A stretch of DNA of 64,000 nucleotides from Trypanosoma brucei (Eukaryota): contig CP000068.1 in assembly GCA_000002445.1 (NCBI GenBank), positions 1,504,001 to 1,568,000 on the forward strand, written 5' to 3'. The notes below the pieces were generated by a model. It saw only the letters and a list, made by a program, of their open reading frames with translations, did no database searches and was not told the origin of the DNA. This document shows, in pieces, positions 8,419 to 36,493 of this stretch. Each line of letters opens with the position of its first letter. The first letter of the stretch is position 1. The translations under genes and the position numbers were made by a program.

Positions 8419-8479
8419 AATGTTAAAAAGTTTCTCTAAAAAGAAAGTTTTCATAAGATTAACAAAACATTTTTAAAAT

Positions 8480-10030
8480 TCACAAATTACAACCAACTCA
8501 CAGAAGAAGCAGCATACTCAGAACCAAGTTCTTATTGACCAGAAAACTGAAAGATCGGCAGTCGGACTTGAGAAGTTTGCCTGTACCATCAACAAAATCA
8601 ATCCATCCGCATACTGCTTACTTAACCGGTTTTACACCCTTGTTTTTAGCTTCACAGGCTTGCTGGGTTTGGTGTTTACCGCAACCTACATCTGTACTTG
8701 TCTCCCCTGTTCCTGCTGCTGTATTTTCTGTTCCTGGTTTAGGTGTGCATCCCTTTTCTTTGTCATAGTCGCAGTGAGCTTCTGGGCATTCTTCTGCAGT
8801 TGTGTTTGTCGTTTTGCATTTAGTCTGTTCCTATACTGACTTTGCCTGGCTTGGGTCTTGGCCTTGATGTATGCTTATCGCCAGGGCTGAGGTCGATGCA
8901 TGTTTGATGCTAGCCTTTGCTTTTTGTACTGTTTCTTTAATTTGAGTTAGTATTCCTCCGCCGCTGTTTTCTCGTTTTCCATGTCTTCTAGCGTCACCGC
9001 CATATCTGTCAAGTCGTGAACCCACTTGACTTTTTTGTAGGACTTGTTCCGCGTTCGTGCTGAAATTTGGAAATTTCACGCAGACACCGCTGCCACTGCT
9101 GCCGTTGCAGTCACTGCTGACGAAGGTGCCGAGGTAACCGTCGCTTGATTCGACGTGAGTTAATTTTGTGACTGCTTCAACGCGGCTTGAAAGTTCATGG
9201 TGGGTTATTTTTGTTCATTTCACGTCGGAGCAGCTTCCTGCGATCGTTTTGAGTTTGCCGTCGGTGGGGTTAGTGTTCTGGCCGGCGGCCCCTGCTTCCC
9301 ATGCCGTCCCGCCGTTAGTCCCTTTGTTGCATAGCCATGCCAGCTTTTCCAGGGATGCGGCTGCTTTTGATTGTCCATCTCCCGCTGTACAGAGGGCTTC
9401 GCGGTTGCCTGTGCTTGCGCCGCCAAAAACAGCGTTGCGCGCCGGGTTAGGTGAGTGTTTTGTGGCTGAACTGTGGATCGCAGTGTTTAGCGTCTTCGCC
9501 AATTCCTGATTTTTTATGGTTTTAGTTGGCCTAGTGTCTGTTGAGTACAGTTTCCATAGGACTTGGATCTCTGACGCTGCATCACTTAGAGCTTTTCGAC
9601 CAATTATGAGCCGTTGCTCGCTTAGTTCCATCGCACCACTTGCTTTAACTTTCTCCTTCATTGGATCGGTTGTTACTGCTTGTATGGCTTTCTTCCAGTC
9701 GTTCCAAAAGCCCTCATAGCCTAGAATTGTTTTCTGTGCTTCTTTTGGGGAGTCTTAAGCTGCTTAACTGTCTGTTCCCTTGTAAAATATTGATTGCCAT
9801 GCAGGTGTTGACACTGAGAAATTCAAGGCTTGTATGAACTGGTAGTCGTCGTCTGTTAGTAGTAGTATCACTGGTATCTCGATCTCTGAGTCTGTTAGCG
9901 CGATAATGTTACAAATGGCCGCCTTCCCTGCTCGGTTCGCGCCTCCGACTATGTCTGCTGCTTGCTTCGATCTCAGACAGCAATTCATCAGCCCCATTCG
10001 GTTATTTTCGACTTTATTGCTTTCTATGGT
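8480..10030 (-). pseudogene. VSG pseudogene (B-type), heavily fragmented
   Basis: Minus ORFs 9764..9997 (…TDDDYQFIQALNFSVSTPAWQSIFYKG), 9215..9661 (mid domain) and 8831..9079 lie in different frames. A Cys-rich C-terminal domain is readable in 8590-8830 (…EECPEAHCDYDKEKGCTPKPGTENTAAGTGE…). The 16-mer is at 8403. Confidence 0.8.
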
Positions 10031-13850: not shown

Positions 13851-13924
13851 GGTGTTAAAATATATCAAATAGCAAGAATTTATCAAAAATTTTTTTAATA
13901 AAAAGAGAGGGGAAAAATTTGTTT

Positions 13925-15543
13925 TAGAAAAGCAAGGCCACAAAGGCAGCAGAAACCACGCTGAGGACGAATTGATTGTTTACTAGAAAACTGTAATCAT
14001 GGCATTTATAACCTGATTTGTCAGATCCATCAGTATTTTCTCCTTTCCAGCCACAAACTTTGGTAGTCTTACCTTCATTGGCCTTCTCACAGGTCGCCTG
14101 GTCTTTATGATCGGAGCATTTTACACCCTCGTCAGTTGATCCTGCAGTTTGAGTTTAGGTTACAGGGACGCCGTTTTTAGTGGCTTTGGTGGCATTGTAT
14201 TTCCACTTCTTATCTGTACTCTCTGTTTCATCATAAGTACAGAAATCCTTGGAATCGCAGGCATTTTTGTCCGCGTGGTGTGCTGCACACTCTTTCTGAG
14301 TCTGTGAGATTCTGTCGTCGGTTACTGACTTTGTTGCAAAATTTTTAATTTTGTCTTGCTGTTCAAGTAGCTCAAATGCCGCTTTTGCTTGGTAGTGAAG
14401 GAGTATTAACTCCAATTGCTTGGTATTAGTCTGAGAAATTAGCTTTGGGTCTTCTTGAGCTGTTGGGCTTACCAGCTCTTTGGGAATCGTCGCTGCTTGC
14501 ATCTCCTTCCATACTTTTTTGAGGCTGAGGTCTTTGTCGGTGGCGTAATGGTCTTTGATGGCGGCGTCTACCGTTGTTTGGTCTGTTTTCGCGTCGTAAT
14601 GTCCTGCTTGTTTTAAGAAAAAAATTTTGACGGCTCTTTTGAACTCTGTGGATGTCGTTATATCGGCGCTGTCTGGGTCGATCTTTTTTGCGGCAGTTAA
14701 AAGGCCGCTTGTTCTCCAGTTGTTCTGCGCGACCTGCGCTGCGTGCATGTCTTTTGGTGTCGTCCCTGCGTCTGCGGCGTCGAACGTCCCGAAGGGTGCG
14801 TGTTTGATCGAGTCGTCGCTTTGTATTAGTGTCAGGTACCCGGCTGCCATGGTTATATCCTTGTGGTTGCCGGCTGTTTCTACGAGACTGCCTGCCGCGG
14901 TTTTAAAGATGTTGCATGTGGGCGTGCCGGCCATCCGGGCCGCTGCTGAATGGTCGCTTGTGCTTGGTTTAAATAGCTTGTCTGGGTCGCCGCTATATGT
15001 TTTTGGATGTACTTTGCCTGTTGTGTCGGTTGCTAGTGCACATTGCGCCAGTGTGGTTGCCCCTTCTACTGTTGTTGTGCCTGCGATTTTCTCCAGGCAG
15101 CCGTGTGTGCCTGAGGTTGAGTAGCTGTCCGCTGCGATCGAGATGAATTCGGCTAGGCGTCCCCTTACGAAAGAAGTAGCTTGCGCTGCTGCCGGTGCCA
15201 TTTTAACGCCTTGAGTGGTTGTGTCAGTTGGCATTGCCGTTTTGGCCGCTATGCCCGCTATTAGTGGTAAAAGCTTCAGCCTCTTGGCCGGTTCCGCCTG
15301 GGAGGCGTAAATGCTTAGTTGAAGAGCGAGCTTTCGATTGTCTTCACTGTTTTCTAAGCTCTGCGCTAGGCTCTGTGACTGTTCGTTGAAGACCGCTGCT
15401 AGATTCGTTGTCATCTCACATATGGGCGTCCAAGTGCCGTGCGTTAACGCCTTGCCCGCGTTTCCGGTCGCCAGCGCTGATTGCACGAGCACGGATAACG
15501 CCATAAGGCCTAGCCGTAAGGTGAACTCTTGCTTACTTAGCAT
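13925..15543 (-). pseudogene. VSG, near-intact (A-type; signal peptide MLSKQEFTLRLGLMALSVLVQSALA; WTPIC); one in-frame TAA at 14155-14157 separates the 462-aa ORF from the last ~75 codons
   Basis: ORF 14155..15543 ends …TKNGVPVT*. The same frame continues TQTAGSTDEGVKCSDHKDQATCEKANEGKTTKVCGWKGENTDGSDKSGYKCHDYSFLVNNQFVLSVVSAAFVALLF* to 13925, giving a complete C-terminal domain and GPI signal. The 16-mer is at 13852. Confidence 0.85.
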
Positions 15544-21760: not shown

Positions 21761-22084
21761 TGCAGTTACAACCGTAACTTTATATCTACAAAAAAATGGG
21801 AAATAAAAATAAATTAATATATTACTCATTTTAATATACAATCACCCCACTGGTGTACACACATGCCTCTGTCATACCAAAGTTTTACAAGTGAAGTTTT
21901 TCAAAATTTTCAATGAATTGCACAACTTGCAAAGGGTTGACAAAAAGTGTTATAATATATCATATTTAAAAAACATTTAAATTTTTTTTCAAAATAGCAA
22001 TTTTTATAAATTTTTATAAGTCTCATAAACTTGAGAAAAAGCTTTTACAAATGATTCGTAAAACTTTTATGCTAGAAGAAAAAT

Positions 22085-22215
22085 TACAAGCAAAAAAGAG
22101 GTCTTAATTAGAACAGAATTTATTCTTGAGTTTTTGTAGGGTTTCTATCATTTCCACCAGTTTGCGCTTCTTTTCCTACTTCCTTCTTGATTTCCTCACT
22201 TAATGTGCACATTTT
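22085..22215 (-). pseudogene. VSG C-terminal fragment (degenerate) with 3'UTR (16-mer variant at 21947)
   Basis: Reverse complement reads …GKMCTLSEEIKKEVGKEAQTGGNDRNPTKTQE*, the CTLSEE-type end of a C-terminal domain as in VSG 23509..24969. It abuts island 2 at about 22220. Confidence 0.65.
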
Positions 22216-22219
22216 TCCC

Positions 22220-23430
22220 TAGACGGCTTTTAGGTTAAAAACGTACCTCCGGAAGTTGAGCACCCTTGGCCGGGGTGTGCCAGCGTCAGATGGCGCTGCC
22301 GAAGTTTAATTGCTAATTATAATTATCAGCTGTTCCCCAATATGAGTATTTTTAAATTTATTTCCTCTTTAAAAGCAAATCGTTTCCCGCAGCGAAAGTG
22401 CCACGCGGCAGCGTTTTTGAAAAAAAAAAATTTGCTAGCCGCGTGCACCGCAAAACGCAAAGCTGAAATTCACGAAAGTAAAATAAACATAGGCGTAACG
22501 ATGTGAAGCTGAAAATAAAAAGAAAAAAGAAGCGCGGATAGCTCCAGTGGAAATAAGTGCCAGCCTTGTGCTTAAATAAAAAAAAAGAGCTGCATCACTA
22601 AAAAAATACAAATTTTTTTAGTGATATGAAGCAATCCAGGACGGAGGTGTGGAAAAAAAATTAATTAGCAGTCAGAGGAAAATTAACCCGATAACCCGAA
22701 ACACTCTAACCCTAACCCTGACCCTGACCCGAACCCGCTAACCCGAAACAGCCTGACCCGAAACACCCGCGCAAAAATGGGCAAAGAAAAAGTTGAGTGC
22801 TAAAACAAAAAAATTTAAAAAATCAAATCGCAAAAAAAAAATAAAAAAATCAAAATAAAAAACCAAAAACCGCGCAAAAACCGAAAATTAAAAGAAAAGA
22901 TTAAAAAAAATTTAAAAAATTGGAGCTTCGCGGGGTCGTGGGGGGGGGGAGGAGGGTTAGGGTCCGCATAACAAAAGAGCCGGTGCACGACTAAAGAAAA
23001 AAAAATTTAAAAAAACACAAAAAAATAAATTAAAAGCCAGCGCAACACAAAACTGCCGCTGCATCACTAATATGAAAAAAAGAAATTAAACGTCAGTGAA
23101 AAAAAGGAGGATCTGCTGCATCACTAAAAGAAAAAACTAAAACAATCCGCGATGGAGGTGTGAGTTGAAAAAAAAATTAATTAGCAGGAAGAGAGAAAAA
23201 TTAACCCTAACCGAGTAACCCTAAGCCTAATCCTAATCCTAACCCTAACCCTAACCCTAACTAACTAACCTAACCTAATTAACCACCCCCCCCATTCCTA
23301 CCTACCCCCCCCCCCACTTCCACAAAAAAAAACGGGAAAAGAAGGGAAAAAATTTTAAGTTATCAGAAAAAATTTCTAGACAATCAGACAGTCAACTTAC
23401 AAAAAACAGCTCAATTTTTTCGGCGGAATT
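22220..23430. repeat. A-rich island with degenerate telomere hexamers (island 2). C-strand-like tracts at 22701-22760 and 23203-23280; GGGTTAGGG at 22954-22962; G10 and C-rich homopolymers
   Basis: Plus strand reads …ctctaaccctaaccctgaccctgacccgaacccgctaacccgaaa…, …ggagggttagggtccgcataacaaaagagccggtgc… and …ttaaccctaaccgagtaaccctaagcctaatcctaatcctaaccctaaccctaaccctaactaactaacc…. An internal duplication is present (…ggaggtgtggaaaaaaaattaattagcag… at 22650 and 23150). Confidence 0.75.
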
Positions 23431-23508: not shown

Positions 23509-24969
23509 TTAAAAAAGCAAAAATGCAAGCAAAAGAGGGGCCTTGTTAATGACAAAAGAATTGCTTCCTGTGGTGTTTGTGTTTCCAGTTTTGCTATCTT
23601 TCTCTCCTCCCTCTTTCTGAGCTGCTTCTTTCTCTTCATCACTCAATGTGCACTTTTTGCCATCCTCTTTCGTTTTATCATAAGTGCATCTGTTATTCGT
23701 GTCACAATCACTTTTTTCTTTCAAGTCGTTACAAGTTTGTTCTGCGGATTTTACATCCTGTTGCTTTTCAGTTGCTTGTGCTTGTAACTTAGCAACTTGG
23801 TCCGCCATTTGTTGCTTGTGTTTCACCTCCAGTATTTTGTAAAAAGCCAAAGTTACTTGTAAGATGCCAGCATCGTTTATTTCTTTGATTTTCGTATTGG
23901 TAGTGGCGCTTGGATCGACGTTGATCGCGTCTGCCTCATCTAGCTTGTTCAAAAAGCTTTTCACCTTTTCACCAGCCTCTCCAAAGTTCTCCTTGATTAG
24001 CACTTCGGCTTTGTCCTCCGCTTGTTTGCCGGCTTGTTTGCCGTACAGCTTGTGAAGTAGTTTCGTTAGGTGTCCTTTGAGTTTGCCCGTTGTTACTGCT
24101 GCTTTGATTATCGCTTCTGGTTCATGTGCGAGCTGCTGCGTTATGGCCGCCCTTATCGTGTCTGCGTCATTGAAAGCGAGCGTTAGGAGGTCGTCTGCAT
24201 CTCTGTTGGTTTGCTTTTTCAGGTTCTGCTGGCTCGTCCGTGTCACCCGGTTTGTTGTGGCTATTTTGAATAGCCCATATCCAAAGTTTACGGCCGTGGC
24301 TCCGGTTACGAAGGCTCCTGTGCCTGCACCTGCGAAGTTGACTAGCCCGCACTTGGTTGACACACTGGTTGCCATCCCGTTAGTTCCGGTGATTTCGTCG
24401 ATAGTCTTGAATCCAGTCGCGCTGATTATATCGGCGTCTAACGTTTCGCTTGGGGTTTTCTTCATAGTTTTTGGTCTCTGCTCGCAGCCAGCTGTTGCTA
24501 TGTCGGCTGTCTTGTCCTCGTCGGTGTCGGTGTCTGCTAGACAGTATCCTCCGCTGTGCTTCGCGCTTTTGAATACCTGGAGGCTTGCTTCAATGCCGCC
24601 GGTTAGCTCCTGAGTCGTCGCAGTTGCTTCGAGTGCTGTCTTGATGAAGTTGCTTCTCTGCCGTTCGCTTGCGTCCGCTTCTTCGTAAATGGCTGCGGCT
24701 GCTGCTGATAGCAGTGCCGTCGTTTCGACGTCGGACTGCGTAGTTGCCGCGTACAGGTTTAACTTCGCCGCTGTTCGCTCTGCTGCTGTTATCGCGTCCT
24801 GCAGGTTGCTTTCGTGTGTGTACGCCATTACTGGGACTTTCCGCAGTTCTTTGGCTATCGCACACGGTGGTTTCCACGTTTTGCCAAGCAATGGTTCGCC
24901 GGTCGCTGAGGCCGTGTTGGCTGCCCACTTCGTCATTAGTATCATTAGAGCTGTCGTGGCAACGGACAT
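23509..24969 (-). CDS. VSG, intact (486 aa; signal peptide, TWKPPC, C-terminal domain …KKCTLSDEEKEAAQKEGGEKDSKTGNTNTTGSNSFVINKAPLLLAFLLF*)
   Basis: Single ORF 23509..24969 with canonical N and C termini and a perfect 16-mer at 23436..23451. Confidence 0.9.
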   Translation of the reverse strand: MSVATTALMILMTKWAANTASATGEPLLGKTWKPPCAIAKELRKVPVMAYTHESNLQDAITAAERTAAKLNLYAATTQSDVETTALLSAAAAAIYEEADASERQRSNFIKTALEATATTQELTGGIEASLQVFKSAKHSGGYCLADTDTDEDKTADIATAGCEQRPKTMKKTPSETLDADIISATGFKTIDEITGTNGMATSVSTKCGLVNFAGAGTGAFVTGATAVNFGYGLFKIATTNRVTRTSQQNLKKQTNRDADDLLTLAFNDADTIRAAITQQLAHEPEAIIKAAVTTGKLKGHLTKLLHKLYGKQAGKQAEDKAEVLIKENFGEAGEKVKSFLNKLDEADAINVDPSATTNTKIKEINDAGILQVTLAFYKILEVKHKQQMADQVAKLQAQATEKQQDVKSAEQTCNDLKEKSDCDTNNRCTYDKTKEDGKKCTLSDEEKEAAQKEGGEKDSKTGNTNTTGSNSFVINKAPLLLAFLLF

Positions 24970-34720: not shown

Positions 34721-34981
34721 TTCCATAACTAATATCCAGAAAATAAACTAAACTAAAATTTTCATAAGAGCACTCGCTTTTCCTGCCTTATTACAATAAA
34801 ACGTTACACCCATAAGCCACTGCTATACAATTTTTTCACAATTTTATATATTTCGAATTCTTAAAATTTTCAGCAAATACTGCTAAAATATATCACATAT
34901 TATTAGTTTTAGCAACATATATAAAAAAATAGTTTTATAAATTTCAGAAAGAATCCTTATAGTTCTCAAATGATACCAAAC

Positions 34982-36493
34982 TCATAAAAGAGAAACATCC
35001 ATTAGAGCTAATTTCTTATTTACAGGAAAACTGTAATCCTTGCAAGTTTCGCTTTCCCACTTACAATCCGGGGATTTGCAGTACTCTCTTTCCTTATCCT
35101 TGGAACCTGAGGCAGTATTTGTTCCTGTAGTTTGAGTTTATGTTACGGGGAGGCCTGCTGCTGTTGCTTTTGTTTCATTAAAATTGCACTTTTTGTCGCC
35201 CTCATCTGCGCTTTTATTATAACTGTAATAAGGCTTTTTGTTGCATTTACTTTTATCCGTTATTGTACTGCAAGTGTATACCGATGCCTTTTCATTGTTC
35301 TTCTAAGCTTCTTCTAGCTTTTTGTTTAATGTTTTTAGATTTTGTGAATTTTGGATCTGAAAGTCCACTAGTAGTGCTGCCAGTACGTTTGCTTCAGCGA
35401 TTTCCCCTGGTAGAGTGTCTTTGGCTTTGTCACCAAATTTGCTGAGCAGCTTGAATACCGCTACTTTGGTCATTAGCCTCTTTACTTCGTCGGCTGGACT
35501 TCCTGTGAACAATTGCGTTTTGTAGTCTTTAACGACCGTACTTTCTCTCGCCTTGCCGTGTGTGCTGATCAAAGTGAATAACGTGTCGGCTGCAGCGGCT
35601 GCTGTTAGTTGGCTTGTTTTGTTGTCGTATTGCGGTGAATCCTCTGAGAGCGCCTTCTGTAAAGCTGTTGAAACAGCCTCCCACAGCGGTAGCCTTGTGG
35701 AATGTGTCAGCGTTGCTGCGCTGCCGAAAGCTAGCACCGCTTTGTCGCCGGCGTTTTGTGTTACTCTTATGTAGCCACCTACGTATTCCAGTTTGTTTTG
35801 GGTGTTGCTGGCGTCCGTGTGGACTATGCCGTCGCCACCATCTAGTGTCAGAAGCCGGCACTTGGCTGTGCTGTCTTGATGGTCCTGGGTATGGTCTGTT
35901 GGGTTGCGTAGTCCTTTGTAACCTTGTGGTGTGACGAGCGGGCTTTGCCGCTTTTCCTTTTTCGTTTCTGTGGCCTTTAGTGGACCCGTGACGCTCTCTA
36001 TGACGCCTCGCTCTAGAGCTGCTGCTGCGCCTCCACCGCTGACGCTTAAGCACCCATGTGCGCTGCCCGCTGTCTGTTGTGCGATGTCTAGCCATTCGTC
36101 GAGACGACCATTCAAGTAAGTTGCTGCTTTGCTTGCTTGCGCGATACTTTGCGCTCCCTGTGTTTCTAGGTTGGTAATTATGGTATTGCTTGCCGTTTGC
36201 TGGTAGGCTGCAAGCGTCAATAGTTTGTCATTGTCTGTGTCGGTGGGGTTTGCTGCCATGTATACCTGCGTGCGAATGGCTTCGATTGCTATGTTTGCGG
36301 CCCGCTTTAAGACAGCGGCTTCTGAGGCAAGCATCTCCCAGGCAATTCCATTCAGGTCGTTGCTTATTTCACAAAGCGGCTGCCACGCCGCTTTTTTCAT
36401 GCTGTCTTTGGCGGTCGCATCGCTCCTGTGGACTATTGAAATTATAACCATTGCTGCAGTTGCTGTTAGCTGCTTAACTGCGGACATTGTCAT
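34982..36493 (-). pseudogene. VSG pseudogene (A-type; AAWQPLC); the reading frame is continuous but has two in-frame stops (TAG at 35303-35305; TAA at 35138-35140)
   Basis: ORF 35303..36493 (396 aa) reads MTMSAVKQLTATAAMVIISIVHRSDATAKDSMKKAAWQPLCEIS…. The same frame then reads …KKLEEA*KNNEKASVYTCSTITDKSKCNKKPYYSYNKSADEGDKKCNFNETKATAAGLPVT*TQTTGTNTASGSKDKEREYCKSPDCKWESETCKDYSFPVNKKLALMDVSLL*. A 16-mer variant is at about 34880. Confidence 0.85.

What the first reader, a model, noticed from the sequence alone, without database searches (positions are those of the whole stretch)
14130..14180. Two otherwise different VSGs share the same in-frame TAA within a conserved ~30-nt stretch at the start of the C-terminal domain
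VSG 13925..15543 reads …NATKATKNGVPVT*TQTAGSTDEG… (cctgtaacctaaactcaaactgcaggatca). VSG 34982..36493 reads …NETKATAAGLPVT*TQTTGTNTAS… (cccgtaacataaactcaaactacaggaaca; TAA at 35138-35140). Their N-terminal domains are unrelated and their C-terminal domains diverge again about 30 nt downstream, yet the nonsense codon and its context are conserved. Independent origin of the same stop is unlikely. More plausibly a short hinge-region segment carrying the TAA was transferred between silent VSGs, or both inherited a C-terminal module that was already defective. This gives a traceable marker of segmental exchange within the archive.
Basis: seen in the sequence. Interest (0 to 1): 0.55.

Follow-up and report, generated by a model that had tools for sequence, protein, structure and literature searches.

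The report
Same stop codon, two VSG pseudogenes
Two silent trypanosome coat-protein genes carry the same premature stop because one DNA letter changed in a glutamine codon inside a short linker that is conserved across this gene family, which is a minor curiosity within an already well-known system of decaying, recombining antigen genes.

Summary
Two minus-strand VSG pseudogenes in this T. b. brucei TREU927 array have TAA at homologous codons (14155-14157 and 35138-35140) inside a conserved block of about 27 nt.

The setting was misread. The block is not at the start of the C-terminal domain. It is linker L2, between the two subdomains of an ILTat 1.24-type (type 1) C-terminal domain. Its peptide, G(V/L)PVTQTQT(A/T)G, recurs in many unrelated intact and expressed VSGs, and 18 of 19 alignable sequences have Gln at the stop position. 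The stop is therefore most likely one C-to-T change from CAA, and the conserved context needs no recent transfer.

Relatives 87-94% identical to gene A, from strains EATRO 1125 and Lister 427, have Gln there. Two EATRO 1125 genes end at exactly this codon. The stop/Gln pattern conflicts with neighbouring sites, so it has either recombined or recurred within that family. Between A and B, exact identity spans only 12 nt and flanking synonymous sites are saturated.

An anciently defective shared module is therefore unlikely, and direct A-B transfer is unsupported. The likeliest account is parallel mutation plus within-family gene conversion. Short-tract conversion between the two lineages is not excluded. 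The finding is ordinary and of low interest.

The parts
13927..15543 (-). Gene A: a VSG pseudogene with an A-type N-terminal domain and a two-subdomain type 1 C-terminal domain. It has 539 codons. Its normal stop is at 13924-13926.
   Evidence: Translation. Pfam PF00913 (E 6e-36) and PF10659 (E 7e-22). The ORF truncated at the TAA is 462 aa. It is 99% identical to EATRO 1125 VSG 1125.1188, which is also 462 aa.
14155..14157 (-). In-frame TAA in gene A (codon 463), at the Gln position of the L2 linker.
   Evidence: It aligns to Gln in PDB 2JWH and in P0085, P0001 and P0083.
14140..14166 (-). Conserved L2 linker block in gene A: CCTGTAACCTAAACTCAAACTGCAGGA, encoding PVT*TQTAG.
   Evidence: It is the identity peak (0.88) in the A/B DNA profile.
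14203..14205 (-). TGG (Trp) in gene A where the fourth conserved Cys of subdomain S1 should be.
   Evidence: offset -16. Relatives P0087 and P0083 have Cys; P0085 and P0001 share the Trp.
13852..13867 (-). Conserved VSG 3'UTR 16-mer TGATATATTTTAACAC downstream of gene A.
34982..36493 (-). Gene B: a more decayed VSG pseudogene of the same domain types. It has two in-frame stops, two lost cysteines and a truncated GPI signal.
   Evidence: Translation. Pfam hits. Its C-terminal domain matches both ILTat 1.24 subdomains, 2JWG and 2JWH. The full-length relative P0078 shows the intact residues.
35138..35140 (-). In-frame TAA in gene B (codon 452), at the same L2 Gln position.
35123..35149 (-). Conserved L2 linker block in gene B: CCCGTAACATAAACTCAAACTACAGGA, encoding PVT*TQTTG.
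35303..35305 (-). First in-frame stop of gene B (TAG, codon 397), where the relative P0078 has Ser.
34880..34895 (-). Degenerate VSG 3'UTR 16-mer downstream of gene B (2 mismatches).

Best explanation
Genes A and B are ordinary silent-array VSG pseudogenes of T. b. brucei TREU927 with ILTat 1.24-type (type 1) C-terminal domains. The block of about 27 nt they share encodes the linker (L2) between the two small cysteine-knot subdomains. Its peptide, G(V/L)PVTQTQT(A/T)G, is kept across many otherwise divergent VSGs, which explains the conserved context. In each gene the first Gln codon of this motif, inferred to be CAA, has become TAA by a single C-to-T transition.

The stop in gene A's family is young relative to the A/B split. 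It has been shuffled among close paralogues by gene conversion, or has recurred there. The stop in gene B most likely arose separately. Such a stop is tolerated in the archive for two reasons. Silent VSGs are not expressed in place. [quoted passage not shown]

Shown here: the homology of the two sites, Gln as the intact residue, the family-wide motif, Gln in A's close relatives, the reticulate pattern, and the absence of a shared tract between A and B. Inferred: CAA as the ancestral codon, separate origin in B, and tolerance through 3' donation.
For: Motif and intact residue. PDB 2JWH (ILTat 1.24 S2) reads TKASKSGVPVTQTQTAGADTT and aligns Gln to both stops. Of the 19 retrieved VSGs with a clearly alignable L2, 18 have Gln. 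The neighbouring Gln codon at +2 is CAA in both genes.

Young stop in A's family. P0085 (1125.4040, 539 aa, 94% identical to A) is identical to A over the 15 L2 codons compared, leaving aside the stop codon itself. P0001 and Lister 427 VSG-726 also have Gln. P0086 and P0087 (1125.1188 and 1125.4755) both end at ...GVPVT, at 462 aa. Stop/Gln shows all four combinations with W/C at column 447 and with NN/HK at columns 274-275 (read by hand). Column 447 conflicts with six other sites.

No shared tract between A and B. Exact identity is only TAAACTCAAACT. There are synonymous differences at codons -1, -3, -8, -9, -11, -18 and -19. For codons -19 to -1, pS is 0.72, pN 0.22 and dN/dS about 0.11.

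Tolerance. Hall et al. 2013 (PMC3708902) found 3' donation in 57% of unique expressed sequences and state that it allows expression of VSGs with damaged C-terminal-domain-encoding regions. P0075 switches C-terminal sequence exactly at the start of L2 relative to TREU927 VSG P0074.
Against: For this one pair, independent nonsense mutations hitting the same homologous codon have a probability of only about 0.5-1.7%. Both of the only two motif-bearing genes in the window carry the stop. A third gene (P0087) apparently has it too. No DNA of any relative could be obtained. The ancestral codon and the sequences downstream of the stop in P0086 and P0087 are therefore unseen. That these two proteins end at a stop rather than at a contig end is inferred from their exact 462-aa length. 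The dN/dS estimate rests on about 12 synonymous sites.
Confidence: 0.5

Rival explanations
1. Short-tract gene conversion spread one original TAA between otherwise divergent type 1 C-terminal domains, using the conserved L2 block as the homology patch. Transfer could have been direct or through third-party donors.
For: Both motif-bearing genes in a single window carry the stop, 21 kb apart. The stop is reticulate within A's family. Among A-family members, differences are mildly concentrated at L2, with fixed-window P of 0.03-0.05 and 0.0004 for P0083 versus P0001. Templated VSG insertions are short (median 29 bp), biased to the C-terminal region, and need no more than about 100 bp of imperfect homology with about 12 bp of perfect identity at the junction (PMC13233330). 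3'-donation boundaries use over 85% identity across 13-143 bp (PMC3708902). P0075 has a junction at the start of L2.
Against: Between A and B the exact block is only 12 nt, and there is a mismatch immediately 5' of the TAA (ACC versus ACA). A direct tract would therefore need a zero-length upstream junction or later mutations. Flanks are at background, saturated divergence. The L2 clustering window was chosen post hoc, and the scan statistic is not significant. The cited mechanisms were shown for the active expression-site gene, not between silent array genes.
Confidence: 0.32
2. Both genes inherited the TAA from a single ancestral C-terminal module that was already defective, and have since diverged.
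For: The codon is the same and the position is homologous. C-terminal domains are known to evolve as modules, separately from N-terminal domains (PMC1868767).
Against: A's relatives at 87-94% identity carry Gln, whereas the A and B C-terminal domains are only about 35% identical. Gene A has no other stop or frameshift in 539 codons. That is implausible after the amount of neutral divergence required. Upstream codons show saturated synonymous change but conserved amino acids, dN/dS about 0.1. This means the modules diverged while under selection for the peptide.
Confidence: 0.1
3. The stop is favoured rather than neutral. Either this C is a mutational hotspot, or a stop in L2 is selected as a 'safety catch' that forces array VSGs to be expressed only with an expression-site C-terminal end.
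For: The stop apparently recurs in at least three genes and two strains.
Against: No sequence feature suggesting a hotspot was seen, and the base before the C differs between A and B. None of the nine other 90%-identity clusters of motif-bearing VSGs examined contains a member truncated at this codon. Silent genes are not translated, so there is no obvious selection.
Confidence: 0.05

Closest known systems
ILTat 1.24-type (type 1) VSG C-terminal domain: L1-S1-L2-S2 (PDB 2JWG and 2JWH; layout described in PMC12226131)
   Same: Both genes match S1 and S2 of ILTat 1.24, and their linkers read G(V/L)PVT[stop]TQT(A/T)G against GVPVTQTQTAG. The S1-L2-S2 layout follows the JBC 2025 paper.
   Different: Both are degenerate. 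Each has a stop in L2. A has Trp for one S1 cysteine. B has lost one cysteine in each subdomain and has a truncated GPI signal.
Silent-array VSG pseudogenes of T. brucei TREU927 (archive about 5% intact; the rest atypical genes, pseudogenes with frameshifts and/or stops, and fragments)
   Same: The array runs in one direction, with the conserved 3'UTR 16-mer after each gene. Both genes have in-frame stops. Three intact neighbouring VSGs match the consecutive RefSeq proteins XP_845140-142, while the exact ORFs of A and B are absent from the protein collection. The archive definition is from PMC1868767.
   Different: Nothing essential differs. The only added point is that the same codon is hit in two divergent genes and in EATRO 1125 relatives.
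3' donation and mosaic (segmental) VSG gene conversion (Hall et al. 2013, PMC3708902; Nature 2026, PMC13233330)
   Same: The exchanges are short, homology-guided and biased to the C-terminal region. The L2 block has the identity and length such junctions use. P0075 shows a junction at L2. A-family members carry three different 3' ends.
   Different: Those events were documented in the expressed gene. Here any exchange would be between silent genes, and no donor tract can be delimited between A and B.

Membership tests
Trypanosoma brucei VSG, A-type N-terminal domain | Match to Pfam PF00913 above the gathering score | tested here: met
   Gene A scores 124.8 bits and gene B 158.7 bits, against a cut-off of 22.1.
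VSG C-terminal domain | Match to Pfam PF10659 above the gathering score | tested here: met
   Gene A scores 78.3 bits and gene B 56.7 bits, against a cut-off of 21.4.
Type 1 (ILTat 1.24-like) C-terminal domain | Two structured subdomains joined by a linker, with sequence similarity to ILTat 1.24 S1 and S2 | tested here: met
   Gene B matches 2JWH at E 1e-10 and 2JWG at E 6e-5. Gene A matches 2JWH at E 1e-3.
Type 1 (ILTat 1.24-like) C-terminal domain | A full set of eight cysteines, four per subdomain | tested here: not met
   Gene A has 3+4 (Cys to Trp at codon 447). Gene B has 3+3. They are decayed derivatives, not functional members.
VSG pseudogene (VSGdb / genome-project definition) | A frameshift and/or in-frame stop in an otherwise full-length VSG | tested here: met
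   Gene A has one TAA. Gene B has a TAG and a TAA. The definition is from PMC1868767.
Silent subtelomeric array VSG | Tandem same-strand genes, each followed by the conserved 3'UTR 16-mer | tested here: met
   There are 13 copies of the 16-mer, all on the minus strand. The window matches a 1.6-Mb TREU927 chromosome.
Product of segmental gene conversion between A and B | A delimited tract of near-identity set in divergent flanks, longer than family-wide conservation explains | tested here: not met
   The exact block is 12 nt, with synonymous mismatches at codons -1 and -3. The same motif is conserved in unrelated VSGs.
Segmental gene conversion within gene A's paralogue family | Incompatible site patterns (four-gamete violations) among close paralogues | tested here: met
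   Stop/Gln conflicts with W/C (column 447) and with NN/HK (columns 274-275). Column 447 conflicts with six other sites. Recurrent mutation is not excluded.

The most novel reading that the evidence does not exclude
The TAA is a mobile allele. It is copied between otherwise divergent, silent type 1 C-terminal domains by very short templated conversion (about 12-30 nt) at the conserved L2 block. If so, the mosaic-forming machinery also operates among silent archive genes, and this codon would serve as a natural tracer of such events.
Probability: 0.3. Interest if true: 0.45.

Novelty: already known. Interest (0 to 1): 0.2.

Why it matters
It matters little on its own. VSG pseudogenes with premature stops, modular C-terminal domains and segmental conversion are all established. 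The useful outcome is methodological. A conserved context around a shared lesion in this family reflects a family-wide linker motif, not recent transfer. The second CAA codon of the same motif offers a built-in control for any repertoire-wide test of mutation against conversion. If the TAA did prove to be spread by conversion among silent genes, it would give a cheap marker for measuring archive-internal exchange, about which there is little direct evidence.

Tried and rejected
- The word-indexed protein search with A's C-terminal domain alone found nothing. The exhaustive HMMER search was needed to reach VSGs.
- Four attempts to obtain DNA of relatives failed: A's 462-aa ORF, the intact 533-aa neighbour, P0001 and P0074. 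No nucleotide comparison outside the window was therefore possible.
- A full-text search for the peptide PVTQTQT found no paper. The supplement of PMC12226131 does not contain the motif.
- Marcello & Barry 2007 is not held. Two further literature searches for shared VSG pseudogene lesions gave nothing relevant.
- No relative of gene B closer than 49% identity was found, and B's exact ORF is not in the collection. The age of B's TAA could therefore not be polarised as A's was.
- The test for clustering of differences at L2 is only suggestive: the window was chosen post hoc and the scan statistic is not significant.
- Stop-codon reassignment or read-through was considered and rejected. The organism is T. 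brucei, which uses the standard code. All expressed relatives have Gln, and gene B has further lesions.
- Sequencing error was rejected because the same truncation is present in EATRO 1125 genes.

Full report
**What is in the sequence.** The window is a one-directional array of VSG genes. The conserved VSG 3'UTR 16-mer occurs 13 times, always on the minus strand. Three intact ORFs are exact matches to the consecutive T. b. brucei TREU927 proteins XP_845140, XP_845141 and XP_845142, on a 1,608,198-bp chromosome.

Gene A (13927-15543, minus strand) reads through 539 codons with a single in-frame TAA at codon 463 (14155-14157). Gene B (34982-36493, minus strand) has a TAG at codon 397 (35303-35305) and a TAA at codon 452 (35138-35140).

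**Where the stop sits.** Both proteins match Pfam A-type VSG N-terminal domain and VSG C-terminal domain. Searched against PDB sequences, gene B's C-terminal region matches both solved subdomains of ILTat 1.24: 2JWG (S1) and 2JWH (S2). Gene A matches 2JWH. In both alignments the stop is opposite a Gln in TKASKSGVPVTQTQTAGADTT.

According to PMC12226131, a type 1 C-terminal domain is built L1-S1-L2-S2. The motif therefore lies in L2, the linker between the two subdomains. It is not at the start of the C-terminal domain, as the finding says. The N-terminal domains are also not unrelated: both are A-type and about 25% identical.

**The context is a family-wide motif.** The exhaustive HMMER search with the 76 residues downstream of A's stop returned 73 hits, all VSGs but one (P0020, an unrelated 2,448-aa repeat protein). 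Eighteen of these have Gln at the stop position and one has Lys. The flanks recur as G(V/I)(P/S)VTQ(T/A)QT(A/G/T)G in VSG-310, -441, -343, -472, -444, -582, VSG 800, 1125.158 and others. These carry both A-type and other N-terminal domains.

The conserved stretch of about 30 nt therefore does not itself indicate transfer between A and B. In the A/B DNA identity profile it is one of two peaks. It reaches 0.88, and the other reaches 0.83 at the end of S2. The intact codon is inferred to be CAA, because TAA is one transition away and the second Gln codon of the motif is CAA in both genes.

**Age of the stop in gene A.** Gene A belongs to a tight family.
- VSG 1125.1188 (P0086) is 99% identical to A and is 462 aa long, ending ...KNGVPVT. 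This is exactly the length of A's ORF truncated at the TAA.
- VSG 1125.4755 (P0087, 94% identical) is a distinct paralogue that also ends at 462 aa with ...KNGVPVT.
- VSG 1125.4040 (P0085, 94%, 539 aa) reads KNGVPVTQTQTAGSTGEG. It is identical to A over the 15 L2 codons compared, leaving aside the stop codon itself.
- VSG 1125.4932 (P0001) and Lister 427 VSG-726 (P0083) also have Gln.

The stop is thus shared by two strains, so it is neither a sequencing error nor very recent. It is nevertheless polymorphic among genes at least 87% identical to A, whereas the A and B C-terminal domains are only about 35% identical.

Read by hand from the alignment, stop/Gln gives all four combinations with W/C at column 447, 16 codons upstream: A has W with stop, P0087 C with stop, P0085 W with Gln, and P0083 C with Gln. 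The same holds with NN/HK at columns 274-275. Column 447 is itself incompatible with six other sites. Family members also carry three different 3' ends after ...DGSDKSGYK. Within this family the C-terminal region has therefore been reshuffled by recombination, or the same changes have recurred.

**A versus B at DNA level.** Codon by codon, the two genes are exactly identical only over TAA ACT CAA ACT (12 nt). Codons -1 (ACC/ACA) and -3 (CCT/CCC) differ synonymously, as do codons -8, -9, -11, -18 and -19. Codons +4 and +6 differ by replacement. For codons -19 to -1, pS is 0.72, pN 0.22 and dN/dS about 0.11. The two lineages therefore separated long ago and kept the peptide under selection, although the estimate rests on few sites.

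This argues against an anciently dead shared module, as does the absence of any other stop or frameshift in gene A. It also leaves no detectable donor tract. A direct A-B conversion would need its upstream junction exactly at the TAA, or later mutations.

**Chance.** I restored the putative intact codons and enumerated every single-base change that creates a stop. The probability that a random nonsense mutation in A hits codon 463 is 0.5-1.7%, for transition:transversion weights of 1 to 8. For one pre-chosen pair that is unlikely. After scanning an archive of well over a thousand VSGs in many windows, one such coincidence is roughly what chance would deliver. That last step is my estimate, not a computed result.

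**Mechanistic context.** Hall et al. 2013 (PMC3708902) found 3' donation in 57% of unique expressed VSG sequences. Its boundaries lay in local homology of over 85% identity across 13-143 bp. The authors note that it allows expression of VSGs with damaged C-terminal-domain-encoding regions. The Nature 2026 paper (PMC13233330) reports several related points:
- Templated insertions have a median length of 29 bp.
- The events are biased towards the C-terminal region.
- About 100 bp or less of imperfect homology is sufficient.
- About 12 bp of perfect identity is found at in-vivo junctions.

The L2 block fits these requirements. P0075 is probably one of Hall's expressed TREU927 clones; I inferred the accession mapping and did not verify it. 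It is nearly identical to genomic VSG P0074 up to KAKEKG, then carries a different L2 and S2. That places a junction at the start of this motif.

A stop in L2 is therefore harmless to the archive. In principle it can be carried along or removed by such exchanges.

**Verdict.** The best-supported account has four parts:
- The linker motif is conserved family-wide.
- A single C-to-T change at its first Gln codon produced each stop.
- Within gene A's family the stop/Gln state has been reshuffled, by recombination among paralogues or by recurrence.
- Gene B's stop probably arose separately.

I give this a confidence of 0.5. Spread of one TAA between the two lineages by very short conversion remains possible (0.32). 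Inheritance from an already defective common module is unlikely (0.1). A hotspot or selected stop is unlikely too (0.05): none of the nine other 90%-identity clusters of motif-bearing VSGs that I examined contains a member truncated at this codon.

The feature is real but ordinary. It belongs to a well-described system in an annotated reference genome. The question it raises can be settled by a simple repertoire-wide scan, which these tools could not run because no trypanosome DNA outside the window was obtainable.

Noticed in passing
window 35303-35305 (gene B, minus strand): Gene B's first stop (TAG, EEA*KNN) lies one codon before the point where four relatives end. These are VSG 1125.5059, 1125.1357, 1125.5058 and Lister 427 VSG-1459, all 395 aa and ending ...NKKLEEAS. 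This is a second truncation point shared, or nearly shared, across strains.
   Followed up: partly
window 14203-14205 (gene A, minus strand): The fourth conserved cysteine of subdomain S1 is Trp (TGG). The change is shared with EATRO 1125 paralogues P0085 and P0001 but not with P0087 or P0083, and it conflicts with six other informative sites. It is therefore reticulate too.
   Followed up: yes
window 13927-14010 (3' end of gene A): Members of gene A's family have three different 3' ends after ...DGSDKSGYK. A has CHDYSFLVNNQFVLSVVSAAFVALLF, P0085 has CRNSSILLDKQFALSVVSAAFVALLF, and P0001 has a degenerate YRDFSFSINKKLALSIAAAFVNFRKL. This indicates swaps of the GPI-signal segment.
   Followed up: partly
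window 23512-24969 (minus strand): This intact VSG (XP_845141) clusters at 90% identity or more with eight 486-aa clones (seven AGQ accessions and one ABQ). They look like expressed cDNAs from TREU927 infections, so this array gene seems to be used in vivo.
   Followed up: no
not in the window: proteins P0074 and P0075: P0075 is nearly identical to TREU927 VSG P0074 up to KAKEKG, then carries a different L2 and S2 (VTVTQTQTGGDGTTAPSDRCTRHKDK...). This places a 3'-donation-like junction at the start of the L2 motif.
   Followed up: partly
window 8419-8720 (minus strand): Another VSG in the array has a stop inside its second C-terminal subdomain (GVKPVK*AVCGW) and a truncated GPI signal.
   Followed up: no
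window 21963-22300 (minus strand): A fragment consisting only of C-terminal domain and 3'UTR, with a 16-mer at 21947, has no recognisable N-terminal domain upstream.
   Followed up: no
not in the window: protein P0079 (VSG 1125.1128): This is the only retrieved VSG with an alignable L2 that lacks Gln at the stop position. It has Lys (NNVPIAKTQNGG), and its ORF ends early inside S2.
   Followed up: no
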